Source: Methanothrix sp. (GTDB lineage Archaea; Halobacteriota; Methanosarcinia; Methanotrichales; Methanotrichaceae). From it: a stretch of DNA of 64,000 nucleotides. Shown here one piece after another: positions 1,712 to 56,280 of the stretch. Within the stretch, counting starts at the first letter, position 1. Each line of letters opens with the position of its first letter. The position numbers were made by a program, and so were the translations under genes. The stretch lies in NCBI GenBank assembly GCA_963682135.1, contig OY821645.1, positions 1,344,001 through 1,408,000 of the forward strand, in the 5' to 3' direction. Under the pieces are notes generated by a model. That model worked only from the letters and a program-made list of their open reading frames with translations, did no database searches and was not told where the DNA came from.

Positions 1712-1818
1712 TGTTTATAAGTGGAAATTTCTGCTTAAATAGCTAATTGTGCCAAGAGCATTACAGCTAAATATGTACATGAGATACAATATTGTTGGAT
1801 AGTTGCCTGGAGAAAACG

Positions 1819-2154
1819 ATGACAAGAAGAACCGGTTTTTATAATAAAAATAATTTTAATATTATAGTTGTAATTAGTATTATTCTCGCGTCTCAGTCCA
1901 TAATAGCGTCGTCATCTGCTCTATCTGATGATTCGGCACTCATGAAGTTGATCACTCAGAATGAAGATCCGCGAATGGGCGTGAAGGATCTTGTATTCTT
2001 CTTGGTCACACATGATTTTGATGCAGTTCCTAAAAAGGACCGCGTAGAAGTTCAAATAGATGGTACCCCCTACGTATTGGTGCCCAATGGTCAATCACCC
2101 GGACTGGCCAATGTAACCGCAGCGTCTCTAGAAGTAACCGGTCAAAAAAAATGA
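1819..2154 (+). CDS. Small exported hypothetical protein
   Basis: Hydrophobic N-terminal signal (IIVVISIILAS) followed by a compact domain. It ends 22 nt before the next CDS. Start is uncertain (1792 or 1819). Confidence 0.65.
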   Translation: MTRRTGFYNKNNFNIIVVISIILASQSIIASSSALSDDSALMKLITQNEDPRMGVKDLVFFLVTHDFDAVPKKDRVEVQIDGTPYVLVPNGQSPGLANVTAASLEVTGQKK

Positions 2155-2176
2155 ATAGGATAAGGGAGATAAAATT

Positions 2177-5035
2177 ATGAAAGCTTTGATAAAATTCGTT
2201 ATCGGATTTCTTCTGATAGCTTTTCTGGTTACAGGTTCTTTGGCGGCAGAAGAGAAGACATCGAAGCAAGTTCTAATTCTTGCCTCCTATAATCTTGGGA
2301 TGAAATGGGATGACAGCATTATCTCCGAGATAAAGCATCAATTTGCGATTTATAAGCCTTCAGCAGTTATCAATGTCGAATTCATGGATACAAAGAGGAT
2401 TGATCCAAATGCAACCCGTCTGGCTGACTTGAAAGCATTGTATCTAAAAAAGTATAATGGCAGGCACTTTGATGTAATCATTTCCATCGATACCGACGCA
2501 TTCCAATTCTTGCTCAATAACCGCGATGAGATTTTTCCGGGAACGCCGGTAGTCTTCTGCGGCGTTATCAGCTTCGAAGATGAGATGCTGCGAGGAAAAC
2601 GCAATTTCACGGGCGTAATGGAAGTATTCGATATCAAGGATACAATTTCTTTGATGCTCAAATTGCATCCCCATACGAAGCTTATTGCTATTGTAAATGA
2701 TAATACATCGACCGGTCAGGCTAATCGAAAGATCATGGATGCTGCGATTCCAGAATTAGAGGGCAAGGTATCTTTTGAGTACCTTGACAACCTCACAGCA
2801 GAGGAGCTTGCGAGGCGTGTCCACTCCCTGCCTGATGACAGCCTCATCTTGGAGATGACCTTTAATCGTGACCGGAATGGAAAAGTATTGACTTATGAGG
2901 ATACGACAAGCCTCATCCAAGGAGCAAGCTCTGTTCCAATTTATGCTTTATGGGATTTCTTCATAGGATATGGTATTGTCGGAGGAAAGTTGCTCACGGG
3001 ATCGTCTCAAGGAAGCGAGGCAGCAAAGCTTGCGCTGCGCATCTTAGAGGGAGAAAAGGCGGAAAATATTGCAGTAGTTAGAGAGAACTTCAACCGCTAC
3101 AAGTTTGATAATTTTGAGTTGATTCGTTTCGGCATTCCCGTCTCCAGCTTACCCGCAGACAGTGTGATAATTAACCGGCCATTCCAATCACGCGTTGATC
3201 TCAGTGGCACAAACCTGAGCGGCCTTAATATATCCGGAGCCAACTTAAGCCGCTCACAGCTGCAAAATACCAATCTGGAAATGACGAACCTCAGCGAATC
3301 AGTGCTGGAAGGATCTGAATTGGGCGATGCCCGACTTGTGAGAACCATCTTCAGAGGAGCAACCATGGATGAGACCGACATTGATGGATCCGATCTGTCT
3401 TTTGCCGACCTGGATGGTGCAATTCTTGTCGGATCTGACATCGCCGGCTCGAATCTGACCGGTGCCGACCTGCGAGGAGCAGACCTGAGCCAGGCCCGTT
3501 TGACCAATGCGATTCTTGCAGGAGCAAATCTGGATAATGCCAACTTGACCGCAGCCAATCTTCCGGATGCAGATCTAACCAAAGCTTCCTTTTTCAGAGC
3601 TTATTTGAGGCGGGCTAACTTATGCAGTTCGCGACTAATGGATGCTAACCTTTCCGAAGCAGATCTCGTGGGGGCTGCCCTGATAGCTTCTGAAATGACA
3701 GGCGCCAATATTTTCAAGGCCAACCTGGAAGAGGCGAGAATGTCCGGCGCAAGATTGATTGATGCAAACCTGGGTGCGGTCGATCTTATGGCCGCCAACC
3801 TCAGCACCTCCAATCTGACAGGTGCAAACCTGGCCGATGCCTACATGAGAAGGGTTATGCTGAGGGATGCAATACTGAAGGGCGCCAATCTATCGATAGC
3901 TGACATGGTTGGGGCTAACATGATTGATGCTGATCTTTCGGATGCAGAATTTTATGGGGCTGATATCTCAGAGAGTCGCTGTCATGGAGCAAAGTTCGTC
4001 GGCTCTCGATTAATCAATTCTCAAATTCGGTTTGCTAACCTGACTTATACGAACTTCAGCATGGCGAACCTCTCTGGATCGGATCTTGCGTCATCCAGTT
4101 TGGAAGGCTCCGATCTCTCTAGAGCTAACCTTTCAAGGGCAAATCTCGAAATTGCCTATATGCACAATGCTAACCTTGCCGGAGCTGATCTTTCCGATGC
4201 CAGCCTGCCAGGAGCGCATCTGGAAGATTCCGACCTATCCAGCACGAATCTTGAAAACGCAGATCTGACCAATGCATTGCTGGGCGGATGCAACCTTACT
4301 GGTGCCAATCTGAATGGAGCCAGGCTTCTTGGTGCGGATCTTAGCCTGGCAATCATGAATGATGCACAGATGACCAGGACAAATATGATCGGTGCCAAAA
4401 TGAGCTGGGCGGATCTGAGCTGCAGCAGTCTTACCGATTGCCAGTTCACCAGAGCGGAGCTTTTTGGAGCCAACCTGAGCAACTGCGACCTGACCGGTTC
4501 GGACTTCACCCGGGCATATTTAGTGAGAGCTAATCTATCAGGTTGCACTCTGAAAGATGTCAACTTGGATTACGCCGACCTTACCGGAGCGAATCTGAGA
4601 AATGCCCGAATAAATGGGGCCAGACTCGCAAATGTATTTCTAAACGAAGCGGACCTATCGAACGCGGACCTCACGGGTTCTTATCTTTATGGCATGACTC
4701 TGAAGGATACTGTTTGGAGCAAGGCGAACTTGAGGTCGTCCAGCATAATTTTGCTGAACTTTTTGGATGCTGATTTCAGCGGCAGCGACCTGCGAAAGAC
4801 CCGTTTTGCCCAGACCTATATGAATAACACCAACTTCTCCGATGCGGATCTGAGTGGCGTTGTCTTTGACACCTGCGCCTTCGAAAACTCTGATTTTACA
4901 GGCGCCAACCTGCAAGAAATCAAATACGATTCCACTGCGCTTAATTTTTTCGCGGCGTCCAAACTCGAAGGGGCCAAGATAAGCGCAGATCTGAAAAATG
5001 ATCTAGAAAAATTGCGGTCAGGAAAAATAGCCTGA
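2177..5035 (+). CDS. Secreted fusion of an ABC-substrate-binding-like (kinase-type extracellular sensor) domain and about 600 aa of pentapeptide repeats
   Basis: Signal peptide. Sensor-domain motifs VLILASY, EFMDTKR, PVVFCGV, GIVGGKLL...QGSEAAKLALRIL and LPADSVIINRP, then a continuous A(D/N)LxxA(D/N)L repeat region to a helical C-terminal cap. Confidence 0.88.
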   Translation: MKALIKFVIGFLLIAFLVTGSLAAEEKTSKQVLILASYNLGMKWDDSIISEIKHQFAIYKPSAVINVEFMDTKRIDPNATRLADLKALYLKKYNGRHFDVIISIDTDAFQFLLNNRDEIFPGTPVVFCGVISFEDEMLRGKRNFTGVMEVFDIKDTISLMLKLHPHTKLIAIVNDNTSTGQANRKIMDAAIPELEGKVSFEYLDNLTAEELARRVHSLPDDSLILEMTFNRDRNGKVLTYEDTTSLIQGASSVPIYALWDFFIGYGIVGGKLLTGSSQGSEAAKLALRILEGEKAENIAVVRENFNRYKFDNFELIRFGIPVSSLPADSVIINRPFQSRVDLSGTNLSGLNISGANLSRSQLQNTNLEMTNLSESVLEGSELGDARLVRTIFRGATMDETDIDGSDLSFADLDGAILVGSDIAGSNLTGADLRGADLSQARLTNAILAGANLDNANLTAANLPDADLTKASFFRAYLRRANLCSSRLMDANLSEADLVGAALIASEMTGANIFKANLEEARMSGARLIDANLGAVDLMAANLSTSNLTGANLADAYMRRVMLRDAILKGANLSIADMVGANMIDADLSDAEFYGADISESRCHGAKFVGSRLINSQIRFANLTYTNFSMANLSGSDLASSSLEGSDLSRANLSRANLEIAYMHNANLAGADLSDASLPGAHLEDSDLSSTNLENADLTNALLGGCNLTGANLNGARLLGADLSLAIMNDAQMTRTNMIGAKMSWADLSCSSLTDCQFTRAELFGANLSNCDLTGSDFTRAYLVRANLSGCTLKDVNLDYADLTGANLRNARINGARLANVFLNEADLSNADLTGSYLYGMTLKDTVWSKANLRSSSIILLNFLDADFSGSDLRKTRFAQTYMNNTNFSDADLSGVVFDTCAFENSDFTGANLQEIKYDSTALNFFAASKLEGAKISADLKNDLEKLRSGKIA

Positions 5036-5040
5036 CCCGC

Positions 5041-5050
5041 CTTTTTTTAT
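5041..5050 (+). terminator. Probable archaeal oligo-T terminator
   Basis: CTTTTTTTAT a few nt after the stop codon at 5035. Confidence 0.45.
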
Positions 5051-5225
5051 TGGAACTAATCATGGGATATAGTTCAAGCGGACTGGCATCATGCCGCCTT
5101 GAATAGCTGTGTCGTAAATGGGAATAATTGATTACAAGATTCGATTTAATTGCACTAAGAACATTAATCATTTATAAGTAGGATCATATATGCAATTATC
5201 CGAAATGGAAATGGAGCTGGTTTGA

Positions 5226-6284
5226 TTGAAATGCGTCTCAATGGCAATTCTTTGTGCACTTCTCCTGGTTGGCTTTACTGGAGCTAGCGGTGGTACAGCA
5301 AATAATAGCACCTCAGAGAAGAACAAGCTGAATGTGACTCTGCTCGATTTCGGCCCGATTGGAGACCACGGCTGGACGTACGAGGCCCACACAGGCGCAT
5401 CGGAGATGGCCCAAGAGCTATATTTTGTCAACCTATCCGAGAGAGAAAATGCCGCAGGTCCCGGTGCATCCCAAATTTTAAGGGATTACGCGAAGAATGG
5501 AGCGGAGCTGATATTCTGTCACAGCTACAACTTCATGGATGCCATCAAAGAAGTAGCTCCAGAATACCCGGATGTCGTTTTTATGTGGGGAGGCGGTACG
5601 CATAAGCTGGCGCCCAATGCGGGAGTCTATTACGAAAGGATTTATGAGGCCCAGTATCTTGCCGGAATCGTGGCGGGCAATATGACCAAGACGGGAAAGA
5701 TTGCATTTGTGGCTGCATTGCCCACATCCCAGGTGATAATCGGCATCAATGCCTTTGCTAAAGGTGTGGCATCCTCCAATCATCGCGCCAAAGTGTACGT
5801 AGAGTGGATCGGAGACTGGTATGATCCCGGAAAAGAGCGGGCTGTAGCCTTATCACTTATCAATAAAGGCTGCGATATCATAACCCACTGGTCCGATTCC
5901 GATGCGACGGGTCAAACGGCGGATGAGATGGGCACCTACTTCATATCCTTCGGCTCAGATGTCGGCAGGTTCTCTCCTCAGGTATATCTTACGGGCGCAG
6001 TCTGGAACTGGCAGCCCATTATGACCGATATTGCAGAATCTGTGCATAACGGGACGTGGGATTCTCACCCAGGACAGGAGTGGTGGTACGGACTGGCAGA
6101 AGGTGGAGTAGAGCTGGCACCTTTTGGCGACAAGGTCCCTGACAGTGTTCGATCTTTAGTAGCCGAAAGGCAAAAGGATATTGTGCAAAAAAATTTGACA
6201 ATATTCCCCGGCCAGAGTGATGAAGAGCTAAAAGAGATGTATTACCTCGAACCTAATGTTGTGGGCAAGCTGCCAAAATCATAG
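5226..6284 (+). CDS. BMP/PnrA-family substrate-binding protein (nucleoside/purine-binding type)
   Basis: Motifs GPIGDHGWTYEAH, YLAGIVAG, INAFAKG, WIGDWYDPGKE and WNWQP; signal peptide; TTG start. Confidence 0.9.
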   Translation: MKCVSMAILCALLLVGFTGASGGTANNSTSEKNKLNVTLLDFGPIGDHGWTYEAHTGASEMAQELYFVNLSERENAAGPGASQILRDYAKNGAELIFCHSYNFMDAIKEVAPEYPDVVFMWGGGTHKLAPNAGVYYERIYEAQYLAGIVAGNMTKTGKIAFVAALPTSQVIIGINAFAKGVASSNHRAKVYVEWIGDWYDPGKERAVALSLINKGCDIITHWSDSDATGQTADEMGTYFISFGSDVGRFSPQVYLTGAVWNWQPIMTDIAESVHNGTWDSHPGQEWWYGLAEGGVELAPFGDKVPDSVRSLVAERQKDIVQKNLTIFPGQSDEELKEMYYLEPNVVGKLPKS

Positions 6285-6388
6285 GTATTCTCTTTTTTTC
6301 AGGAGAAAGGGTTGACTTATATCATTGTCTACCCGGAAGAGTCCATCCCAGATAAAAAATTAATAGTAGTAATGTAGATATTATAGTT

Positions 6389-8155
6389 ATGAATATTTCT
6401 TTGATGCGATTGGTTCTATGGTTGTGTTTGCTTCTCACACTTTTAACTATTATTTCATCTGCAATCGTAGAAGATCCCATCAAATTAAAAGATCATCTCC
6501 GGCTTATCGGCGCGAACCTGAGCGGCATGAACTTGTCCGGGGCCCATCTGAATCATTCCGAGTTGCAAGGATCTGATCTTCGCAAAACGAACCTCAGTAG
6601 ATCCTATTTGAACCAATCCAGTCTCTTTGATGCCCAGCTTGTAGAGGCGAACCTCAGCGGAGCAATTTTGGTAGATGCTGACCTTCATGGCTCCGATCTC
6701 TCCCAGGCCGACCTCAGGGGTGCCAATATGCCCATCTGCAATTTATTTGCCTCAAATCTGACGGAAGCAAACCTTTCCGGCACCTTCTTGGCGGGTTGCT
6801 ACTTAACAAGCTCTAATTTAAATCGTGCAAACCTATCTGGCTGCTTTATGGATCAGTCTTTTGCGGATCGTTCAATTATGATTCGTACTAAACTGAATAA
6901 AGCCAGCTTAGGGGGCGTGAAAATGAGCGAAACGAACCTGAGCGAAGCCAGCTTCATAAGGGCGTTCATGGATCGTTCCACATTGCGCCGTTCTCTATTG
7001 ATTGGTGCCAATCTGACCGGCGCAAGCCTGATTGGGGCGAACTTGATTAATGCCACCATATCCAACGCAGATCTCAGCGGTGCGGATCTATCTGAGTCGC
7101 GCTGCTCAGGAGCGAATTTTGTTAGATCTCGGCTGGTTAAATCAAGAATGGGTTTTACCAACCTGACCGGCTCAAACCTGAGCCATGCGGACCTGACCGG
7201 ATCGTATCTTATGGCTTCCTGTCTGGATGGCAGTGATCTCTTCCAGGCAAATCTAACAGGCGCGAACCTGGAAAATGCTTTAATGCATAACGTCAGACTT
7301 GTTGAAGCCAGACTAACCGACGCAATTTTTGCCAGAGCGCATTTAGAGGATGCTGATCTATCTAATTCATATCTTGAACATGCAGATCTTACCGGTGCCT
7401 TGCTCAGCGGGTCTAATCTGACGGATGCCCATCTGTCGGGGGCCAGGCTTCTTAGCGCAGACCTCAGCCTTGCAGTCCTGAAAAGCGCAGATCTTAGCGG
7501 AGCAAACCTGGTAGGTGCCAGATTAAATTGGGCGAATCTGGCAGGAAGCACACTCAAGCGTTGCCAATTCTCCAGAGCAGAGCTATTTGGAGCCGACCTG
7601 AGCCACTGTGACCTCAGCGACTCGGACTTCACCCGGGCATATTTGCCAAGGGCCAAATTGCAGGGGTCCAACCTCAGAAACACAAAGATAGACAATGTCG
7701 ATCTCAGCGATGCGAATATGTCCGATGCTGATCTTGCGGGCGTCCAGATCGTTAAGGCGGATCTGGATGATGCTAACCTATCCGGGGCGAACCTGGCCGG
7801 ATGTAGCATGCAGTCCATGAACTTAAGGGGGACCGTCATGCAAAAAGCTGTATTGAGATCAGCAAGCTTCAATTGGATGATACTTAATGAGGTTGATCTT
7901 CGGGGTGCAGACCTCAGAAATGCTAAATTTGATGCGGTTTTTCTGGAAAATGTGAACCTCTCCGGGGCTGACCTAAGAAATGCAGAATTTAATAAGTCCG
8001 CGCTGGTAAATGTAGATCTGAGCGGAGCGAATCTCGTGGGAATGAAGTATGATCTGGTGGAACTTCCCTTTATTGCCAGCTCAAAACTAGATAACGCCCA
8101 AATGAGTGCTGAAATGAAAAAGGACATTGAAAAATTGAGGGCAGGAAAAGACTGA
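6389..8155 (+). CDS. Secreted pentapeptide-repeat protein; paralog of the C-terminal part of 2177..5035
   Basis: Signal peptide plus about 530 aa of A(D/N)L pentapeptides. Shared blocks CQF[TS]RAELFGA and SDFTRAYL, and a similar C-terminal cap ending EKLR[SA]GK. Confidence 0.9.
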   Translation: MNISLMRLVLWLCLLLTLLTIISSAIVEDPIKLKDHLRLIGANLSGMNLSGAHLNHSELQGSDLRKTNLSRSYLNQSSLFDAQLVEANLSGAILVDADLHGSDLSQADLRGANMPICNLFASNLTEANLSGTFLAGCYLTSSNLNRANLSGCFMDQSFADRSIMIRTKLNKASLGGVKMSETNLSEASFIRAFMDRSTLRRSLLIGANLTGASLIGANLINATISNADLSGADLSESRCSGANFVRSRLVKSRMGFTNLTGSNLSHADLTGSYLMASCLDGSDLFQANLTGANLENALMHNVRLVEARLTDAIFARAHLEDADLSNSYLEHADLTGALLSGSNLTDAHLSGARLLSADLSLAVLKSADLSGANLVGARLNWANLAGSTLKRCQFSRAELFGADLSHCDLSDSDFTRAYLPRAKLQGSNLRNTKIDNVDLSDANMSDADLAGVQIVKADLDDANLSGANLAGCSMQSMNLRGTVMQKAVLRSASFNWMILNEVDLRGADLRNAKFDAVFLENVNLSGADLRNAEFNKSALVNVDLSGANLVGMKYDLVELPFIASSKLDNAQMSAEMKKDIEKLRAGKD

Positions 8156-8869
8156 TCAGGATTCATCCCGCATCGGTCCCAGCTCTTCCACCACTCTGTC
8201 CAGGAACTGCTCCATCAGGCCTTGAATCTGAGAAAACTGCTCCGCATGAGCCGACAACTCTACCGGCCTATTCACATACGGCCCCTCTGTCAGCTCATCA
8301 GCGCAGTTTTCGAGCAGGTGATCGATGCTGTCGCGGGAGGATTCCAGATGAAACTGCAGTCCAATTGACTTTCCCTTGACAAAAGCCTGGTTTATGCAAG
8401 CCCGGCTCTCTGCCGTTCGCACCGCGCCGGGAGGAATCTCGAAGGTGTCGCCATGCCAGTGCAGGGCCACAAATCTCAGCGGCAGAACTGAGAAGAGAGG
8501 AGAGGCAATGCCCTCTTTTGTAAGGTCGACCGGGAACCAGCCAATTTCCCTGTACCCGTTTCTCCGCACAATGCCACCCAGCACATCAGCCATAAGCTGA
8601 GCGCCCAGGCAGATGCCGAGAACTATCTTGTCGCACGCAATGGCATGACGGATGAATTCCTTCTCCCTCGCTAGCCATGGGTATTTGTCGTTTTCGTAGA
8701 TATTCATGGGCCCACCCATGATTATCAGCCAGTCGAATTGATCCATTTCCGGCAGCGCCTCATCCAAGAACAGCTGCGTGCGGGTTAGATCATGGCCGCG
8801 GGACTTGGCCCAGCTCTCGATGTTGGCCAGGTCTTCAAAGGGCACATGTTGAAGGTAGTGAATTTTCAT
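8156..8869 (-). CDS. Class I glutamine amidotransferase-like protein (GATase1)
   Basis: MKIHYLQHVPFE start, IMGGPM, catalytic GICLGAQL, WHGDTF and GLQFHLE. Confidence 0.9.
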   Translation of the reverse strand: MKIHYLQHVPFEDLANIESWAKSRGHDLTRTQLFLDEALPEMDQFDWLIIMGGPMNIYENDKYPWLAREKEFIRHAIACDKIVLGICLGAQLMADVLGGIVRRNGYREIGWFPVDLTKEGIASPLFSVLPLRFVALHWHGDTFEIPPGAVRTAESRACINQAFVKGKSIGLQFHLESSRDSIDHLLENCADELTEGPYVNRPVELSAHAEQFSQIQGLMEQFLDRVVEELGPMRDES

Positions 8870-8898
8870 GGAGAACACCCTGGAGATTGCTTGCAGTT

Positions 8899-11127
8899 TT
8901 ACTCCAGGAATGTAAATTCCATTGCCCACTTGTTCAACCTGCCCACATCCCTTTGCTCCAAATCAGTCACCCGCAATATCCAGTTGCCGTTCAAGAGCTG
9001 GCCCTTGAATCCCGCCAGATCGGCAACATCCTTTGCCTCAAAAGTCCTTACAATATCTGGTTTACCGCTACCTGCGGCATTGTGAAGTACGGCCCTCTTT
9101 CCGCCAGGTGAGAATAACTCCACCCTCAGATCGCTGACATAATTATGGCTGATATCAACGCTCACCTTGATGCTCTGCACCACACCTACCCTCTCCACCA
9201 TTATGGCATGGCCAATTCCAGTCGGGTCTGCATCGGGTATATCCAGATTGGGTGAGGCATCATAGCTCGCCGAGCCAGTCGTAGCCTCAAGATCCAGCTC
9301 TATTGACCATCTATTCAGCTTACCGATGTCTATCTTGGCCAGATCGGCTACCCAAAGTGTCCAGTCTCCCAGGGAAGGCTGGCCCAGGAATGCTTTCAGC
9401 TCCTGCTTGCTTATGCAGTCGTAAGTTGCTATCAGGTTATCCTTGCTGCCGCCCTCGCGATTATGCAGCACTGCCCTCTGGCCGGATGGAGCGATGAGCT
9501 CCGCTTTCAGGTCTCCAATGTAGGTATGTGTAATATCCAAAGAGACTCGCATGGCACTGATCTTGCCATTCATAGAAAGTGCGATGACGCTGGATACGCC
9601 CTGCGGATCATTATCATTGATCAAGGCAGCCGCTACTACCTCTCCCCGGGCAACTTTTGCTGATTTAACCGGCCCCGTTCTGAAGCTGATTACCGGGCCC
9701 GGTTCACCGATATTCGAGATGGTCAGTCCCGACTCGGAGAGGTCCCACATGCAGGAGGAGGGCAGCGTGTCATGAGATAAGGCAAGGCCATCGATTCTAC
9801 CAAAGAGGTCCGATGCATCACCCTCATTCCTATTCTTCTCCAGGTCCAAATGCCCATCCGCCTGAAGCAATCCGCATTGGTAATGATGCTCCGGCGTTCC
9901 GCCTTGCCATTCATTTGAGCCGAAGATATCGCAGTGGTAAACGGCCAGGCCGCTGGAAGGAAGATATTCGTCCAGCCCCAGAGTGCTGCGGTTCTCCACA
10001 ATGAAATATTCATTTTCATTGTCCGTTTTGTAGATCAATACGCTGCCATAGTCGCCATGATTGGCCTGATACTCCTCTGCCTCATTCAAGCTCACTACAT
10101 TGTCGCACCAACCAGCCAAATTGCGCAGGTATGTGCATATTGGTGCAGGCGTCTTTCCGTTATCAAGATGATTTCCATAGCTCATCAGGCAATAACTGCC
10201 CATACCGGCGCTGCTTTGGAAGTCGCCATCGCGTTTGCCATAATCGTAAAGATCCGGCAGGCGGCAGAGCATATGGGCGTTCTCGTGACAGAAGGTGCCG
10301 ATGGATAGCTGCGTCTTGTCGTCTCCCAGGCCGGTGAGCATGTAGAAGTAAGCTCTCATATTGCCCAACATCATGTTGATGATGCCATTGTGCGGCCAGA
10401 TGTAGTCGCCCTGGTATAGCGATTTGCCGGCATAAAGAATGTTAATGGCATCAATATAACCCTCACTCTTGCTATCGAATTGCAGTAAGTTAATGCCGGT
10501 ACGCGCTGCCGCTTGCAGCGTCTCCTCGACTAACGGATGCTCTACGTAATACTGCTTCTCGTGACTGAGGGTTATGGGGCCGATTACCACATTGGAATAG
10601 TCGAGCTTTCCGGAAGACATCATAAGGAAATAATCTCGTACTGAACAAAAATTCCCGTAGCTGTTATACCCCTGCGTATTCAACATATCGGAAACGTCTG
10701 CCGGAGTTATGGAGGTCTTGATATCCGAGAATGAAACGAGAATGGTCAATCCCAATACTTTTCCCTGATGGACCCTTCGTCCCTCCAGCAATCCCATATT
10801 TCTGCCCAGAACGCGATAGGCTCCATCTCGGCGGGCATAATTGCGGGCAAATCTCTCCTCGAATTTAGAGGCTATAACCTCCTGCGACTCCCTGAGATGC
10901 CTTTTCACTCCGGACGGTGGGTCCTGGTGCAAAGGAACACCGGTTGAGATCAGCATCCCACCTAGCAGGCGAGCATAGGTGTACAGACCCATCTCCGGGT
11001 CATAGATCACCGAGTAACCATTGTCGTCTTCCTGATAGCTGTAAAACTCATCACCAAAGACAGTTAGCCGGATCTGCGGTCCGTTCCTTTGGGGAAAGAA
11101 CAGCGACTCCCCAAGTATAGCGCTCAT
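8899..11127 (-). CDS. M6 (immune inhibitor A-type) zinc metalloprotease with two C-terminal proprotein-convertase P domains
   Basis: HExxH zinc motif TFCHENAHMLCRLPDLYD, YCLMSYG and EYFIVENR. Two P-domain repeats: HTYIGDLKAELIAPSG...GDWTLWVAD and HNYVSDLRVELFSPGG...GNWILRVTD. No signal peptide seen. Confidence 0.9.
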   Translation of the reverse strand: MSAILGESLFFPQRNGPQIRLTVFGDEFYSYQEDDNGYSVIYDPEMGLYTYARLLGGMLISTGVPLHQDPPSGVKRHLRESQEVIASKFEERFARNYARRDGAYRVLGRNMGLLEGRRVHQGKVLGLTILVSFSDIKTSITPADVSDMLNTQGYNSYGNFCSVRDYFLMMSSGKLDYSNVVIGPITLSHEKQYYVEHPLVEETLQAAARTGINLLQFDSKSEGYIDAINILYAGKSLYQGDYIWPHNGIINMMLGNMRAYFYMLTGLGDDKTQLSIGTFCHENAHMLCRLPDLYDYGKRDGDFQSSAGMGSYCLMSYGNHLDNGKTPAPICTYLRNLAGWCDNVVSLNEAEEYQANHGDYGSVLIYKTDNENEYFIVENRSTLGLDEYLPSSGLAVYHCDIFGSNEWQGGTPEHHYQCGLLQADGHLDLEKNRNEGDASDLFGRIDGLALSHDTLPSSCMWDLSESGLTISNIGEPGPVISFRTGPVKSAKVARGEVVAAALINDNDPQGVSSVIALSMNGKISAMRVSLDITHTYIGDLKAELIAPSGQRAVLHNREGGSKDNLIATYDCISKQELKAFLGQPSLGDWTLWVADLAKIDIGKLNRWSIELDLEATTGSASYDASPNLDIPDADPTGIGHAIMVERVGVVQSIKVSVDISHNYVSDLRVELFSPGGKRAVLHNAAGSGKPDIVRTFEAKDVADLAGFKGQLLNGNWILRVTDLEQRDVGRLNKWAMEFTFLE

Positions 11128-11232: not shown

Positions 11233-11529
11233 TCACCATCCCTTTCTCTCAGCGCTCTGATCTGCTTTGGCCAGACGAACGCTGCCTGCCTCTTGCAGAT
11301 GCTTTTCCAGATCGGGGGGCGGGCTATGGCTGAAGGGGATCTTGCTGGAGAAAAAGGCTCCTTCCTTGAGGAGGGCATAACAGAATAATCCCAGCTCTCT
11401 GTCATAAATAACAGAGTAGCCTTCCTCTGTCTCGTATTGAGCATAAAATTCGTCACCATTGACTACCAATTTAACATCTGGTCCCTTCTCTTGAGAGAAG
11501 GTCAGCTTCTCACCGAATATTGCGCTCAT
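11233..11529 (-). CDS. Standalone homolog of the N-terminal (pro)domain of the adjacent M6 protease
   Basis: Gapless manual alignment to residues 1-80 of the protease gives 40/80 identities (GDEFY, GYSVIYD, HL.E). Confidence 0.8.
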   Translation of the reverse strand: MSAIFGEKLTFSQEKGPDVKLVVNGDEFYAQYETEEGYSVIYDRELGLFCYALLKEGAFFSSKIPFSHSPPPDLEKHLQEAGSVRLAKADQSAERKGW

Positions 11530-48438: not shown

Positions 48439-51400
48439 TTACTCGTATAATGGGCATCCGCAGCTCCCACCCTCCCCTGCGATCTCATCGTCACAGATCA
48501 TCTCCATTCTGTCCAGCCCCCACTCCGGAGGCCGCCAGCCATCCTCTGCGTAAGATGTTGCTTCGCCAACAGTCACCGTAGCGCTCGCCTGCACCGCACT
48601 CCCGCCCGAGCCGTCCAGGGCATGAACCTCTGCCAGGGCGGTGTTCACGAACCTGCCGTTTTGCGCAGCCTGGGTCCGGTACTCGATGAACCGGCTCTTG
48701 CCGGCAGGTATGGCTCCCGTCACCCAGACCAGATTCTCTCCCTGCACCTGGGGCTCTGCGGAAGCATTGAGAAGTTCCAGGCCCGCAGGCAGGCGATCTG
48801 TGACCTGGGCCGCCAGGCTCACATTGGCCCGGTTCTTCAGAAGGACGCGATACCAGATAGTCCTGCCGTCGACTGCGTCGATCCTGGCCTGCTTTTCCAG
48901 GAGCAGATCCGGCTGGCAGCATCCCAGCCATCCAAACTGCATGACGCTCATATTGCCGGCTGTTACCCACTCGTCATTATGCCCACCGGAGGCATAGACC
49001 AGATTGACCAACTCATCCTGCCGGTCGGTTACATTCAGCCTCAAGCTGATGGTCACAGACTGGCCGATGCCCAGATAGAGCAGCGACCAATTGGCATATC
49101 CGGGCTGCAGCCGGTTGGGCTTGAGCGAGGATGTGAGGTAATCGGTTCCGGCGGGGAAGATATCCCAGACGTAGACCGGCCCCAGTGCCGTGTTGCCGTC
49201 GTTCTGAACGGTGATGGTGTAGTCGGCGGCAGCCGTTCCGGGAACCAGCCGCCCGGTCTTGTTCAGGGTGAGGTGAGGCCGGTCAAAGCGGGAGACTCCA
49301 CCCAGGCGGATCTTGCGCTGGATTGTATACTCGCCCACGTACTCCTCGTCCAGGTCCAGAGCGCTTCTGTTGTCCGGCTCGGAGACCGTCCGGAAGCGAC
49401 CCTGACCGCGATAGCTGAGGTTGCTGGACAGGTCGTTCAGACCTGAGGCTCTTGTCTCCTCTTTGATGTAATCGGCACCTTTGACCTCCTGGCCCAGGTA
49501 GCTCTTGCCCGAGCTCTTCGACCAGATTCCGGACTGCCATTTGCCGTAGCCGTAAGCCGGATCTGAGCTGACGGACAGATCTTTGGCCATGTAGCTCTCT
49601 GCTGTGCTGGCCTGCTCTTCGCTCTCGTAGCTGCCGTTTCCGTGCTCGTAGCTTCTCTGGCTCTTCTTGAGCCGCTGGTCGCTCGTAACCTCGCCCTGGC
49701 CGGAGGCATTGCCGATCAGGCGCACATTGCTGCCGTAGTCCTCAAGGCTCTGGTTGAACCGGAATGATCCGGCGTATTCCTGGGAGGACTCGAAGACAGG
49801 CGTTGGCTTGACCGCCTCTCCATCTTTTTTCAGAGCGCCCAGGTGGACCTGGCCCTGCAGAGAGCCTTCGACTGAGATCAGGGTCTCGTTCTTGTCCACC
49901 AGGAGCTTCTGGTCCATCTCCAGGCTCTTAGCATACCGGATCTCATTGCTGGTCGAAGCCTGGGTTGCACGGTTGCGGGTTCTGGTCAGTGAGGAGATCT
50001 CGCTGCTGTAATTTATCGACCTGCCGCCGGGAAGAAGGAAGCTTGTGGGCCGGTAGGCGGCTTTGAGCGAGCCCGCGGTGCTTATGGAGCGGTTCTGCAT
50101 CTGCAGAGCTGCAACCTCTTCGCTGTGGTAGTCACCGCTGCCGTGCTCCGTCTTGAGCAGGCTGGTTCCATCGCGGTCCCGCAGCTTGACGAAGTAGGAC
50201 GTGGAGACCGGCGTGAACTCCTCGCAGGTCAGGGTAACGCTGTTTCTCAGGCCCTGGCTCTGCGTCTCGGTGGAGAGGCGGCGGTAGGTGCTTGCAAATC
50301 CGCTTCCGCTGACGGACGACTCGCTCCAAAAGCTCAGGTTGGAGGCATTCTTGACCTGGAAGAAGACGCTGATGGTGCCCTTCTGGCCGGGGGCAAGATC
50401 GCCAATGGTCCAGATGTTATCCGTGCCCTGGTCTGGAGCAGGCGAGGCGGATAGGAAGATGAGGTCAGGCGAGGCCTGCTCGGTGATCACTACATTGGTC
50501 AAAGCGGTTTTAGCTAGGAGGCTTTCGTAAGCGATGGTGTACCCGATGGTGGCCCCAGGCCAGACCTCCAACAGGTCGGAGGTCTTGTTCAAGTGGACTG
50601 GCTGACCAGTCAGCTTTTCCACATTCACTGAGACCGTGCCCCTGGCCTCGGCTATCGTCACCTCGCTGGAGGTGCCCGTTACCACGACTGCTCCGGTGAG
50701 GCTCTGAGGTGCGTCCGGCTGGACACCGGAGGTTACGGTTATGGTGGTCGAAGGAGCATTCGCATCTCCGGATTTATCCGACTCTGCCGTCTGGGCCGCC
50801 ATCTGTGGGCTGAAGGCAGCGAATGTCCAGGTGATTGTGGTGGTGCCGTCGGCGTTCTGAGTTACGCCCAGAGGACTGTAGTTTGAGCCAATGAAACTCA
50901 GGCCGCTGGGAAGAGTGTATTCAACGATCATGCTATTGAGACCGATACTGCTGTCGTGATTGATGGTGATGTAAAAGGTCAGCTCTTGGCCAGGCAGGAC
51001 ATTCAGTTTGTCGGCAGTAATTGCGACCTGCAAGGCTTGCACAAACCTGCGGTTGCCGAAATCCAGGTCAGTCGGTCCGGGGACTCCTGAGACCAGAGTT
51101 ACGGGATGTGTGCCTGGTGAGGCCGGATAGGATTGCGTCCAGCCGAGTTGGGCAACCTCCTCGATGGTGTAGCTGCCGGGCTCAACGCCGATGAAGGAAT
51201 AGGTACCGTCGGCAGCGGTAACTTTGCTGGCCACCTCGGTTCCCTCTTTTTTTAGCCGGATGGTCCAACCGGAGAGGCCAAGCTCGCCGCTGTCTTTGAG
51301 ACCGTTGCCGTTCTTGTCCTCAAACTTCATGCCGGACAGAACGGTTGACCAGTAGTTGCCGAAATCCAGGTCAGTCGGTCCGGGGACTCCTGAGAGCAGA

Positions 51401-56016: not shown

Positions 56017-56280
56017 GAGACCATGTCGACAATGCCTGCGGCTGCACACGGCCTGCGCGCGCCCTCTCGGGCGGACCGAAATCCCTGCCATTGCTCCCTT
56101 TCCCTCCCCTGACCGAAGAAAGCTGATTTGCGACAGCCTCCCCTGCACTGGGAGGTGCCCGCATAACTGATACAAAACTATGCCAATTTATGCTGAAGAA
56201 TAATTCAGGTATAAAATCTTTACCATTGTTGGCAATCATTGCAGAAAATGGCAAAAAAATGTTATTAAGATATCTGAATC

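What the first reader, a model, noticed from the sequence alone, without database searches (positions are those of the whole stretch)
1819..8155. Candidate extracellular system: orphan ligand-binding proteins paired with very long secreted pentapeptide rods
Seen: four co-oriented genes that all have signal peptides: a small unknown protein, a sensor-domain/pentapeptide fusion, a BMP-family binding protein and a second pentapeptide protein. There is no permease, ABC ATPase or kinase in or beside the cluster. Known: pentapeptide repeats fold into square beta-helices at 20 aa per coil, and the best-studied ones (Qnr, MfpA) are short cytoplasmic DNA mimics; BMP proteins normally serve ABC importers or signalling partners. 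Inference: 530-600 aa of repeats gives roughly 26-30 coils, a stiff rod exported from the cell. It could hold ligand-binding domains across the S-layer or sheath, act as a scaffold, or serve as an extracellular decoy.
Basis: partly seen in the sequence, partly recalled or inferred. Interest (0 to 1): 0.75.

Follow-up and report, generated by a model that had tools for sequence, protein, structure and literature searches.

The report
Secreted binding proteins on rigid rods
A methane-producing archaeon (Methanothrix) carries a conserved four-gene cluster for exported proteins in which small-molecule-binding domains are mounted on, or encoded next to, stiff rods about 12 to 14 nm long, an arrangement not described before whose purpose is still unknown.

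Summary
Window 1819-8155 (+) holds four co-oriented genes, and each protein has a single N-terminal hydrophobic segment followed by a small-x-small site. g1 (111 aa) belongs to no known family or fold. g2 (952 aa) joins a PF04392 solute-binding head, without a linker, to an unbroken pentapeptide beta-helix of 116 repeats (29 coils) with a two-helix cap. g3 (352 aa) is a Bmp protein closest to the purine-base binders AtzT and 3S99. g4 (588 aa) is a bare 26-coil rod, 47% identical to the g2 rod.

The 64 kb window holds no BMP-type ABC permease. None was found in the 55 related loci either, by a crude screen. The linkage is real: 32 of 36 Methanothrix-titled loci have a rod gene within 4 kb of the Bmp gene.

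Two relatives fuse head, rod and Bmp into one protein, and others replace the head with a PstS-like domain. Rod length changes only in whole coils (24 of 25 measured).

Best reading: exported, rigid carriers for exchangeable ligand-binding heads. The role of the rod and the ligands are inferred, not shown. I rate it a new variant of a known kind, of moderately high interest.

The parts
1819..2154 (+). g1: small exported protein (111 aa) of no known family. A signal-like N-terminus is followed by a mature alpha+beta domain of about 70 aa.
   Evidence: ORF. No Pfam or NCBIfam family. Alignment A2 of 18 relatives has invariant D50, L58, H65, A69, P71, P89 and L96. AlphaFold2 pLDDT 74.9. Foldseek against the PDB gave 0 matches at E<=0.001. 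The profile search found 187 relatives at E<=0.001 among 1.84 billion representatives, nearly all 40-250 aa.
2177..5035 (+). g2: signal peptide, PF04392 solute-binding head, 29-coil pentapeptide rod and two-helix cap (952 aa). It starts 22 nt after g1.
2177..2248 (+). g2 signal peptide (aa 1-24), with a predicted cleavage site SLA|AEE.
   Evidence: Hydrophobic segment. It is conserved in 21 of 21 g2-type orthologues. The model has pLDDT <50 at aa 19-27. Cleavage is inferred; no predictor was available.
2249..3184 (+). g2 head (aa 25-336): a PF04392 (ABC_sub_bind) periplasmic-binding-protein fold.
   Evidence: Pfam 35.0 bits against a cut-off of 25.9. Profile A4 matches 3LKV (E 1.7e-11), 3LFT and 6HNI (both E 4.5e-9). 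Foldseek TM-score on the target is 0.75 to 3LFT (L-Trp complex) and 0.72-0.73 to 3LKV and 6HNI. The head is 35-47% identical to sensor domains of GGDEF, kinase and MCP proteins.
3185..4924 (+). [quoted passage not shown] This is about 14 nm at a recalled rise of 4.8 A per coil.
   Evidence: Direct stacking of the sequence. AlphaFold2 shows strict five-residue periodicity with pLDDT mostly 94-98. Foldseek matches HetL 3DU1, Np275/276, Qnr and MfpA. There is no DNA-level tandem repeat.
4925..5035 (+). g2 C-terminal tail (aa 917-952) and stop codon. The tail has two helices (919-927, 937-947) and is conserved across the family and in g4.
   Evidence: It resembles the two-helix cap of Rfr32.
5042..5048 (+). 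Run of seven T, 7 nt after the g2 stop. It looks like an archaeal terminator.
   Evidence: Read. The function is inferred.
5171..5178 (+). TTTATAAG, a TATA-like box 48 nt before the g3 start. The same octamer lies at 1714-1721 upstream of g1.
   Evidence: Read. The g2-g3 spacer has stop codons in all three frames. The function is inferred.
5226..6284 (+). g3: exported Bmp/PnrA-family binding protein (352 aa) of the purine-base-binding subgroup.
   Evidence: Pfam E 1.3e-49. Profile A1 matches 6PI5 AtzT (E 4.1e-75) and 3S99 (E 1.6e-69). Pocket residues were mapped by hand from the AtzT paper.
6293..6299 (+). Run of seven T, 9 nt after the g3 stop. It looks like a terminator. An AT-rich box at 6352-6365 precedes g4.
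   Evidence: Read. The function is inferred.
6389..8155 (+). g4: signal peptide (aa 1-25), a short N-terminal cap, a bare 26-coil rod and the conserved tail (588 aa). It is a paralogue of the g2 rod.
   Evidence: Pfam. It is 47% identical to g2 aa 410-950 over 546 columns, E 2e-144. Stacking of the sequence.
6503..8047 (+). g4 rod (aa 39-553): 103 pentapeptides, about 25.75 coils.
   Evidence: 102 of 104 register positions are hydrophobic.
8048..8155 (+). g4 tail (aa 554-588) and stop codon. The stop abuts the stop of the convergent glutamine amidotransferase gene (8156-8929, - strand).

Best explanation
This is a conserved Methanotrichaceae gene cluster for Sec-exported, soluble proteins. Solute-binding domains are carried on, or encoded beside, rigid pentapeptide beta-helix rods.

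g2 places a PF04392 binding head directly, with no flexible linker, on a 29-coil rod of about 14 nm that ends in a two-helix cap. g3 is a free purine-base-type Bmp binding protein. g4 is a second, headless rod of the same lineage. g1 is a small rod-associated protein of unknown fold.

The rod acts as a stiff carrier or spacer that fixes the position and the azimuth of exchangeable ligand-binding heads outside the cytoplasmic membrane, most plausibly in the space enclosed by the Methanothrix sheath. The heads capture small molecules: an amino-acid-like ligand for g2 and a purine-like base for g3. No transporter is encoded next to them.

Shown: the domain anatomy, the conserved linkage, the fusions, the head swapping and the whole-coil length steps. 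Inferred: export and cleavage, the ligand classes, the location, and what happens to a bound ligand (hand-over to a transporter encoded elsewhere, retention, or anchoring).
For: (1) Anatomy.

(2) Export signals are conserved in orthologues: 21 of 21, 22 of 25 and 39 of 41.

(3) Linkage. Of 55 loci retrieved with the g3 profile, 36 carry Methanothrix, Methanosaeta or Methanotrichaceae in the title. Of those 36, 32 have a rod gene within 4 kb or fused. The upstream neighbour is a rod gene in 19 of 30 loci with >=1.5 kb of upstream sequence. The downstream neighbour is a rod gene in 16 of 28 with >=1.5 kb downstream. Rods flank the Bmp gene on both sides in 12. A g1-like gene is present in 21 of 36. 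The order polB(-) | g1 g2 g3 g4 | GATase, M6 protease(-) recurs.

(4) Fusions. P0071 (1258 aa) and P0080/L032 (1267-1268 aa) join PF04392 head, rod, tail, a linker of about 45 aa and a Bmp domain in one protein behind one signal peptide.

(5) Head swapping. In L013, L019 and L021 the g2 position holds a PBP_like_2 (PF12849) domain on the same rod.

(6) Tree. In a tree of 53 Bmp domains, rod association falls in one clade (support 100/99) with rods near 35 of 37 members, against 0 of 16 in the sister clade. 0 of 500 label shuffles were as clustered.

(7) Rod length between head and tail equals 1 mod 20 in 24 of 25 measured proteins, of 32 examined. The lengths are 301, 321, 461, 501, 521, 541, 561 and 581 aa, that is 15 to 29 whole coils.

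(8) No cognate transporter. The window has none. A crude ATPase/multi-TM screen of all 55 loci flagged ORFs that Pfam then typed as CbiMQO, Opp-type or FecCD-type systems, not BMP-type.

(9) Purine-type ligand for g3. The nearest solved relatives bind guanine (AtzT) and adenine (3S99). The stacking and hydrogen-bonding positions are kept: AtzT Y45 = g3 W50, S97 = S100, E165 = Q169 (E in many orthologues), W194 = W198, N220 = D224 as in 3S99 (mapped by hand). In the rod-less sister clade the Bmp gene sits beside an NCS2 xanthine-type permease (L030), TRZ/ATZ-family deaminase-like hydrolases (L037, L050) and PurP (L041).

(10) The archaea that share this Bmp clade are Methanotrichaceae, ANME-1 and their relatives. 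Sheaths are reported or predicted in both main lineages (PMC11576556, abstract and passages read).
Against: - Export rests on hydrophobicity and conserved small-x-small sites only. No signal-peptide predictor and no proteome were available.
- No expression data were found.
- No retention or anchoring device was identified. The tail is a helical cap, and there is no transmembrane segment, lipobox or sorting signal.
- Parts of the cluster are dispensable in some genomes. g2 is broken into five ORFs in L012. g4 is fragmentary in L003 and L004, and absent downstream in L010, L011, L016, L024 and L040.
- Rod length varies from 15 to 29 coils between relatives. This argues against a single fixed distance.
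- Whole-coil indels could reflect fold stability alone, because the inner residues form face-specific ladders, and not a need to keep the orientation of the head.
- The closest relatives of the head are sensor domains, not proven transport proteins. Its ligand is unknown: PDB relatives appear only at E 1e-9 to 1e-11.
- All 55 loci are metagenome-assembled or uncultured records. No cultured strain was retrieved.
- A BMP-type permease elsewhere in the genome cannot be excluded.
Confidence: 0.45

Rival explanations
1. These are envelope struts or adhesins. The binding-protein folds serve as attachment modules for envelope polymers, such as glycans or sheath or S-layer components. The rods cross-brace or space the layers of the sheathed envelope. 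The head-rod-Bmp fusions would be two-ended connectors.
For: The fusions form a dumbbell with a different binding fold at each end of a rigid rod. Whole-coil length steps keep the relative azimuth of the two ends. One structural neighbour of the head, CD0873, is described as a binding protein with adhesive properties in its PDB title. The lineages that share the Bmp clade are sheathed ones. The rods carry many N-x-S/T sequons: 19 in the g2 rod.
Against: The g3 pocket keeps the residues that clamp a free purine base. Rod length differs twofold among relatives. g4 has no head at all. Parts of the cluster are lost in some genomes. No lattice or oligomer interface was found.
Confidence: 0.17
2. 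These are ordinary ABC-importer binding proteins whose permease and ATPase are encoded elsewhere. The rod is only an unusual substitute for the lipid anchor or the Ser/Thr-rich linker that keeps archaeal binding proteins at the cell.
For: Both head folds belong to families named after ABC transport. Scattered transporter genes are common in archaea (general knowledge). g3 is a free protein here and could dock on a permease.
Against: The crude screen found no BMP-type permease or ATPase in the 64 kb window or within up to 10 kb in any of the 55 loci. The distal end of the rod has no membrane anchor, so it cannot act as a tether by itself. The g2 head joins the rod without a flexible linker, which makes docking on a permease awkward. 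The nearest relatives of the head are sensor domains, not transporter components.
Confidence: 0.2
3. This is an extracytoplasmic sensor. Ligand-loaded heads signal to the cell through a membrane partner, as the Bmp-family protein Med or binding-protein-dependent chemoreceptors do.
For: The g2 head is 35-47% identical to the sensor domains of diguanylate cyclases, histidine kinases and a Methanospirillum MCP. The profile of the g3 family also matches 2HQB, deposited as 'transcriptional activator of comK gene', at E 1.4e-26. A hybrid histidine kinase is the direct neighbour of the cluster in 4 of 55 loci (L010, L015, L028, L029).
Against: Those four kinases have no predicted transmembrane segment. 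51 of 55 loci have no adjacent kinase. In the window the nearest kinase is 13 kb away. The transmembrane and output parts of the sensor relatives are replaced by the rod, so there is no path across the membrane.
Confidence: 0.08
4. The rods are an extracellular decoy: exported DNA mimics that divert viruses, nucleases or parasitic bacteria.
For: The fold is the same as in the DNA mimics Qnr and MfpA. The proteins are acidic: g2 has 118 D+E against 86 K+R.
Against: They score below the Qnr and MfpA family cut-offs. The reading does not explain the fused binding heads or the link to Bmp. Nothing ties the cluster to defence genes.
Confidence: 0.03

Closest known systems
Lumenal or exported pentapeptide repeat proteins (Rfr32 of Cyanothece; PRP review PMC8145042, passages read)
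   Same: An N-terminal signal peptide, an exported quadrilateral beta-helix, and a two-helix cap at the C-terminal end.
   Different: Rfr32 has about 5 coils and no other domain. Here there are 26-29 unbroken coils, a fused binding head, and an archaeal host. The function of Rfr32 is also unknown.
Qnr / MfpA / AlbG cytoplasmic DNA-mimic pentapeptide proteins
   Same: The same repeat and fold (Foldseek; NCBIfam partial scores).
   Different: Those proteins are about 180-220 aa and cytoplasmic, they lack a signal peptide, and they act on gyrase. g2 and g4 score 131-143 bits against the Qnr cut-off of 240 and 121-134 bits against the MfpA cut-off of 360. They also carry export signals.
AtzT (6PI5) and the Brucella Bmp protein 3S99, purine-base-binding Bmp/PnrA-family proteins (PMC6834077, passages read)
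   Same: g3 matches over its full length (E 4e-75 and 2e-69). It keeps the aromatic sandwich and the Ser and Glu/Gln contacts, and it has Asp at the AtzT Asn220 position, as 3S99 does.
   Different: No ABC permease or ATPase lies nearby, and there is no lipobox. g3 is linked or fused to pentapeptide rods. The position of AtzT Asn218 is variable (Trp in the window).
PF04392 sensor domains of bacterial diguanylate cyclases, histidine kinases and MCPs
   Same: The g2 head is 35-47% identical over about 90% of its length.
   Different: Those proteins continue with a transmembrane helix and a cytoplasmic output domain. g2 continues with an extracytoplasmic rod.
PedD / PedG of the Pseudomonas ped cluster (PMC12997753, passages read)
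   Same: An uncharacterised pentapeptide protein predicted to be extracytoplasmic is encoded beside an orphan periplasmic solute-binding protein.
   Different: PedD is short and is not fused to a binding domain. The context is periplasmic PQQ alcohol dehydrogenases in bacteria.
Archaeal 'bindosome' of Sulfolobus and binding domains fused to ABC permeases such as GlnPQ and OpuA (recalled, no call)
   Same: Binding proteins are kept at the cell surface by a device other than a lipid anchor.
   Different: The bindosome uses pilin-like class III signal peptides and an assembly ATPase. The fused domains sit on the permease itself. Neither feature is present here.

Membership tests
Pentapeptide repeat proteins (PF00805) | At least eight tandem pentapeptides of the A(D/N)LXX type. 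| tested here: met
   Pfam E 1.5e-117 (g2) and 9.5e-111 (g4). There are 116 and 103 consecutive repeats.
Pentapeptide repeat proteins (PF00805) | Right-handed quadrilateral beta-helix fold. | tested here: met
   The AlphaFold2 model has pLDDT 91.2 and strict five-residue periodicity. Foldseek matches HetL, Np275/276, Qnr and MfpA with probability 1.00. This is a prediction, not a solved structure.
Qnr / MfpA DNA-mimic subfamily | Reaches the curated family score; a cytoplasmic protein of about 200 aa. | tested here: not met
   Qnr: 142.9 and 131.2 bits against a cut-off of 240. MfpA: 133.8 and 120.6 bits against 360. The proteins are 952 and 588 aa and have N-terminal export signals.
HetL / Alr5209 equivalogs (NCBIfam) | One full-length match to a protein of 218 or 113 positions. 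| tested here: not met
   The totals exceed the cut-offs (HetL 279 and 327 bits against 260) only by summing 4-11 separate stretches along the long rods. The architecture and length differ, so the scores are inflated by the repeats.
Bmp / PnrA-like binding proteins (PF02608) | Full-length match to the family profile and to solved members. | tested here: met
   169.3 bits against a cut-off of 24.1, profile positions 2-290 of 301. 6PI5 at E 4.1e-75.
Bmp / PnrA-like ABC importer systems | A cognate permease and ATPase encoded with the binding protein. | tested here: not met
   None in the 64 kb window. None of BMP type in the 55 loci, which hold up to 10 kb on each side. The screen of the loci was crude: motif and hydrophobicity flags first, then Pfam on the flagged ORFs. 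The rest of the genome could not be searched.
Bmp / PnrA-like lipoproteins | A lipobox cysteine at the end of the signal peptide. | tested here: not met
   The signal region ends ...LLVGFTGASGG, with no Cys at the cleavage position.
PF04392 ABC_sub_bind | Profile match above the cut-off and a type I periplasmic-binding-protein fold. | tested here: met
   35.0 bits against 25.9. Profile matches to 3LKV and 3LFT. Foldseek TM-score on the target of 0.72-0.75.
PF04392-type transmembrane sensors (GGDEF, kinase, MCP) | A transmembrane helix and a cytoplasmic output domain after the sensor domain. | tested here: not met
   There is no second hydrophobic segment. The rod follows the head directly.
Sulfolobus-type bindosome binding proteins | A class III (pilin-like) signal peptide and an assembly ATPase and membrane protein nearby. 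| tested here: inconclusive
   The N-termini look like class I signals with a cleavage site after the hydrophobic core. No pilin-assembly genes appeared among the window ORFs. The class III motif was judged by eye from memory only.

The most novel reading that the evidence does not exclude
Sheathed archaea have a previously unrecognised class of extracellular 'binding proteins on sticks'. Interchangeable solute-binding heads (PF04392, PstS-like, Bmp) are held at one or both ends of a rigid pentapeptide beta-helix. The length of the helix evolves only in whole coils, so the heads keep a fixed orientation. Such dumbbells would work without a dedicated ABC importer. They might act as a capture-and-relay or retention system for scarce metabolites in the space under the sheath, or as oriented connectors between envelope layers. 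g1 would be a dedicated accessory factor.
Probability: 0.25. Interest if true: 0.8.

Novelty: new variant of a known kind. Interest (0 to 1): 0.6.

Why it matters
Methanothrix is among the most important acetate-consuming methane producers, yet little is known about what lies between its membrane and its sheath. Pentapeptide repeat proteins are very numerous, but a biochemical role is known for only a handful (PMC8145042).

This cluster offers a case that can be tested. The rod is physically joined to domains whose job, binding a small molecule, can be assayed. Natural variants give a ready-made set of constructs: swapped heads, fused or split Bmp domains, and rods of 15 to 29 coils.

If the rods prove to be oriented spacers for binding domains, that would give the repeat family a structural role outside the cell. 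It would also give protein engineers a natural rigid spacer whose length comes in whole-coil steps.

Tried and rejected
- Complex prediction of g1 (aa 33-111) with the g2 rod (aa 330-952) returned 'no answer' (score 0.00, mark 0.32). It counts neither for nor against binding. It used the only job, so g3 with g4, g3 with the g2 tail, and rod homodimers stayed untested.
- g1: the ESM Atlas gave only unnamed archaeal clusters (score 0.93). The nearest named ones, BamE/BLIP-like at 0.77-0.80, are in the range of chance. Foldseek found no fold match.
- One relative, P0412 (434 aa), joins the g1 domain to a region with an HELGH motif that matches no Pfam family. A propeptide- or inhibitor-like role is therefore only a lead.
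- A search with the last 119 aa of g4, meant to list every head domain found on this rod lineage, was swamped by generic pentapeptide proteins: 1530 hits among 2508 candidates. It did not isolate the family.
- Conservation along the rod in 49 sequences is fairly even, with coil means of 0.43-0.76. It showed no clear docking patch.
- The g2 head and g3 show no detectable sequence similarity (E 1.2), so g3 plus g4 is not simply a split copy of g2.
- The g2-g3 spacer is real intergenic DNA with stops in all frames. It is not a recent break of a fused gene.
- No DNA-level tandem repeats lie in 1800-8200, apart from a 25-nt item at 4988-5012.
- Kinase linkage is weak: 4 of 55 loci, and those kinases have no transmembrane segment.
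- Literature: 'pentapeptide repeat' plus 'Methanothrix' gave 0 papers. 'Pentapeptide' plus 'Methanosaeta' gave 6 papers, of which 4 were listed; I read passages of one and judged the other listed ones by title and abstract, and none appeared relevant. Three papers held at least 3 of 'pentapeptide repeat', 'solute-binding protein', 'periplasmic binding protein' and 'beta-helix'; I read one in passages and judged two by title and abstract, and none appeared to describe such a fusion. The library lacks most subscription journals.
- Not checked: the metagenome contigs and viral contigs collections (closed), supplements of any paper, SignalP or DeepTMHMM, and the rest of the genome.
Full report
**What is there**

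Window 1819-8155 carries four genes on the + strand:
- g1, 1819-2154, 111 aa.
- g2, 2177-5035, 952 aa.
- g3, 5226-6284, 352 aa, with a TTG start.
- g4, 6389-8155, 588 aa.

The gaps between them are 22, 190 and 104 nt. The window is a methanogen chromosome. It encodes family B DNA polymerase, archaeal EF-2 and EF-1alpha, and formylmethanofuran:H4MPT formyltransferase. The closest relatives of g3 are from Methanothrix genomes, at 88-90% identity.

Pfam finds nothing for g1. It finds PF04392 plus pentapeptide repeats for g2, Bmp for g3, and pentapeptide repeats for g4. GC content falls to 0.42-0.50 across the cluster, against 0.55-0.59 in the flanks.

**Export**

No signal-peptide predictor was available. 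Each protein has one N-terminal hydrophobic segment, and only a single window at g3 aa 159 otherwise passes the threshold. The segment is conserved in orthologues: 21 of 21 g2-type, 22 of 25 g4-type and 39 of 41 Bmp-type proteins. The three g4-type misses are a mis-called start and two fragments. The segment is followed by small-x-small sites. There is no lipobox cysteine, no second transmembrane segment and no C-terminal sorting signal. I infer cleaved Sec signals and soluble exported proteins. This is inference.

**The rods**

Stacked in rows of twenty, g2 residues 337-916 read as 116 consecutive pentapeptides, which is 29.0 coils with no interruption. g4 residues 39-553 read as 103 pentapeptides, with 102 of 104 register positions hydrophobic.

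AlphaFold2 with a 27-row alignment gives pLDDT 91.2. It predicts an alpha/beta binding fold at aa 31-332, then strict five-residue periodicity to about aa 917, then two helices at 919-927 and 937-947. No linker separates head and rod. Foldseek matches the rod to HetL, Np275/276, Qnr and MfpA. It matches the head to 3LFT (an L-Trp complex), CD0873 and 3LKV. At a recalled rise of 4.8 A per coil, the rods are about 14 nm and 12.5 nm long.

The g2 rod (aa 410-950) and g4 (aa 42-587) are collinear and 47% identical, including the non-repeat tail. They are true paralogues. The two-helix tail recalls the cap of the exported cyanobacterial protein Rfr32 (PMC8145042, passages). The DNA shows no tandem repeats, so the repeats are old.

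**The heads**

The g2 head is 35-47% identical to the extracytoplasmic sensor domains of many bacterial diguanylate cyclases, histidine kinases and MCPs, and to an MCP of Methanospirillum lacunae. That search gave 1518 hits at E<=0.001 among 8000 scored candidates, of which 120 were listed. A single-sequence search of the PDB found nothing. A profile reached 3LKV, 3LFT and 6HNI at E 1e-9 to 1e-11. The ligand of the head is open.

The g3 family profile matches AtzT (6PI5, E 4.1e-75) and the Brucella protein 3S99 (E 1.6e-69). The AtzT paper (PMC6834077, passages) reports guanine at 110 nM and adenine at 2.5 uM, gives the contact residues, and notes adenine modelled in 3S99. I mapped these residues by hand on the alignment, where the paper's number equals the chain index plus 5:

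| AtzT residue | g3 residue | Note |
|---|---|---|
| Tyr45 | W50 | invariant in alignment A1 |
| Ser97 | S100 | |
| Glu165 | Q169 | Glu in many orthologues |
| Trp194 | W198 | invariant |
| Asn220 | D224 | Asp also in 3S99 |
| Asn218 | W222 | variable column |

A purine-base-like ligand is therefore likely. This is inferred.

**Linkage in other genomes**

A profile of g3 and 14 relatives retrieved 55 loci from species-representative genomes. I classified their ORFs by phmmer with the window proteins.
- Methanothrix-, Methanosaeta- or Methanotrichaceae-titled loci (36): 32 have a rod gene within 4 kb of the Bmp gene or fused to it. Two of the four misses are cut at the contig end.
- Other archaeal loci (12): 2 have rods (L013, L021).
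- Bacterial loci (7): none has rods.

The full order polB(-) | g1 g2 g3 g4 | GATase(-) recurs, for example in L005, L006, L007, L014, L020, L026 and L039.

A second type of cluster has a chagasin-domain protein, a Peripla_BP_6 binding protein and a Bmp gene on one strand. These face two headless rods and a long form of g1 on the other strand (L025, L027-L029, L046).

In a maximum-likelihood tree of 53 Bmp domains, rod association falls in one clade with support 100/99. Rods are near 35 of its 37 members and 0 of 16 in the sister clade.

**Fusions and swaps**

Thirteen of the 120 proteins listed combine this head with pentapeptide repeats. Two of them, P0071 and P0080 (the same as L032), continue after the conserved tail with a low-complexity linker of about 45 aa and a g3-like Bmp domain. 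This makes one exported polypeptide with a different binding fold at each end of the rod. In L013, L019 and L021 the g2 position holds a PstS-like PBP_like_2 domain on the same rod. The rod is thus a common chassis for exchangeable heads, and g3 belongs functionally with it.

**Length steps**

I measured the distance from the end of the head motif to the tail tyrosine in 25 of 32 proteins of this architecture. In the other 7 the anchor patterns were not found. The distance equals 1 mod 20 in 24 of the 25. The values are 301 (3 proteins), 321, 461, 501 (6), 521 (3), 541, 561 and 581 (8). The exception is 482, in L021.

Indels of single pentapeptides would be expected to give other remainders. 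Either the azimuth of head relative to tail is under selection, or only whole-coil changes keep the face-specific inner ladders intact. The spread from 15 to 29 coils argues against one fixed length.

**No transporter**

The window has only an ABC-2 exporter, 10 kb away. A crude ATPase/multi-TM screen of all 55 loci flagged ORFs that Pfam typed as follows:
- CbiMQO, Opp-type and FecCD-type ABC systems.
- An NCS2 nucleobase permease.
- DUF92, MscS-like, AI-2E and YdjM membrane proteins.

None is a BMP-type permease.

In the rod-less sister clade (ANME-1, Argoarchaeum and some bacteria) the Bmp domain is fused to Peripla_BP_6 domains (751-965 aa), to a second Bmp domain (701 aa) or to a chagasin domain (448 aa). 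It is often preceded by a free PF04392 protein. Its neighbours include an NCS2 xanthine-type permease (L030), TRZ/ATZ-family hydrolases scoring below the family cut-offs (L037, L050) and PurP (L041). These neighbours fit a purine-related ligand.

**g1**

g1 has a conserved mature domain of about 70 aa. Its predicted fold is two helices and a four-stranded sheet, with no match in the PDB. The family is small: 187 representatives at E<=0.001 among 1.84 billion. It accompanies rods in both cluster types. The one complex prediction, g1 with the g2 rod, gave no verdict.

**Transcription signals (inference)**

Runs of seven T follow the stops of g2 (5042-5048) and g3 (6293-6299). TTTATAAG boxes lie at 1714-1721 and 5171-5178, and an AT-rich box lies at 6352-6365. 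The spacer between g2 and g3 is closed in all frames. I therefore expect three transcription units: g1-g2, g3 and g4.

**Interpretation**

The best-supported reading is exported, rigid carriers for exchangeable ligand-binding heads in the extracytoplasmic space of a sheathed archaeon (confidence 0.45). The archaea that share this Bmp clade, Methanotrichaceae and ANME-1, are both reported to have or to encode sheaths and to have exchanged sheath genes (PMC11576556, abstract and passages).

The rivals are an ordinary importer with distant permease genes (0.20), envelope struts or adhesins (0.17), a sensor (0.08) and a decoy (0.03).

Evidence against any essential role: g2 is broken in L012, and g4 is fragmentary or absent in several genomes. 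I found no expression data and no paper describing such a fusion. The nearest described co-occurrence of a pentapeptide protein with an orphan binding protein is PedD/PedG.

**Verdict**

This is a new variant of known kinds, namely a pentapeptide repeat protein fused to periplasmic-binding-protein folds. Interest 0.6.

Noticed in passing
window 11233-11529 (-) and 8899-11127 (-): A 98-aa ORF resembles the N-terminus of the neighbouring M6 metalloprotease, which has two P-domains. Several related loci keep the short ORF where the full protease is missing (for example L005-L007, L012, L014, L022, L039). It may therefore be a real small gene and not debris.
   Followed up: partly
L030, L034, L036, L049, L052, L053, L037, L050 (loci): In ANME-1, Argoarchaeum and related records the same Bmp clade forms multi-binding-protein fusions: Peripla_BP_6+Bmp(+Peripla_BP_6) of 724-965 aa, Bmp+Bmp of 701 aa, and Bmp+chagasin I42 of 448 aa. 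In three of them (L030, L034, L050) a free PF04392 protein lies directly upstream, and in L037, L050 and L051 a DUF92 membrane protein lies close upstream. No ABC genes are adjacent.
   Followed up: partly
L025, L027, L028, L029, L046, L023: A second, paralogous type of cluster occurs in Methanothrix. A chagasin-domain protein, a Peripla_BP_6 protein and a Bmp protein are encoded on one strand, facing two headless rods and a 224-229 aa long form of g1.
   Followed up: partly
P0450, P0455, P0496; long g1 forms, for example L025:8003-8692: The C-terminal extension of the long g1 form also occurs in phage-like proteins that carry Mu F, XkdF-protease or ADP-ribosyltransferase domains. One relative, P0412, joins the g1 domain to an HELGH-motif region that matches no Pfam family.
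   Followed up: partly
L010:3101-6544, L015:3163-6924, L028:5007-8978, L029:9489-11630: Soluble hybrid histidine kinases (PAS, HisKA, HATPase and receiver domains, no predicted transmembrane segment) lie directly beside the cluster in 4 of 55 loci.
   Followed up: yes
L003:6958-10000 and L026:6947-9845: Three genes, two of them MscS-like channel genes, are inserted between g2 and g3 in two genomes. The cluster can therefore be interrupted.
   Followed up: partly
L012:7036-9915; L003:11075-11776; L004:11088-12105: g2 is split into five ORFs in one genome, and g4 is fragmentary in two others. This suggests decay or assembly errors in some lineages.
   Followed up: no
proteins listed, for example P0244, P0260, P0266: Many long pentapeptide proteins in the database are fused to PF07995 (glucose/sorbosone dehydrogenase), fn3, kinase or TPR domains. 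Long rods joined to other, probably extracytoplasmic, domains may be a wider theme.
   Followed up: no
window 48439-56175 (-): A 2578-aa protein with ten SdrD_B repeats plus LVIVD, GEVED, lamin-tail and DUF11 domains, presumably a giant surface protein.
   Followed up: no
window 3185-4924 (g2 rod): Of the 19 N-x-S/T sequons in the rod, 18 have the form N-L-S/T at the same repeat position, and 15 lie on two of the four faces. I did not test this against chance or against cytoplasmic pentapeptide proteins.
   Followed up: no
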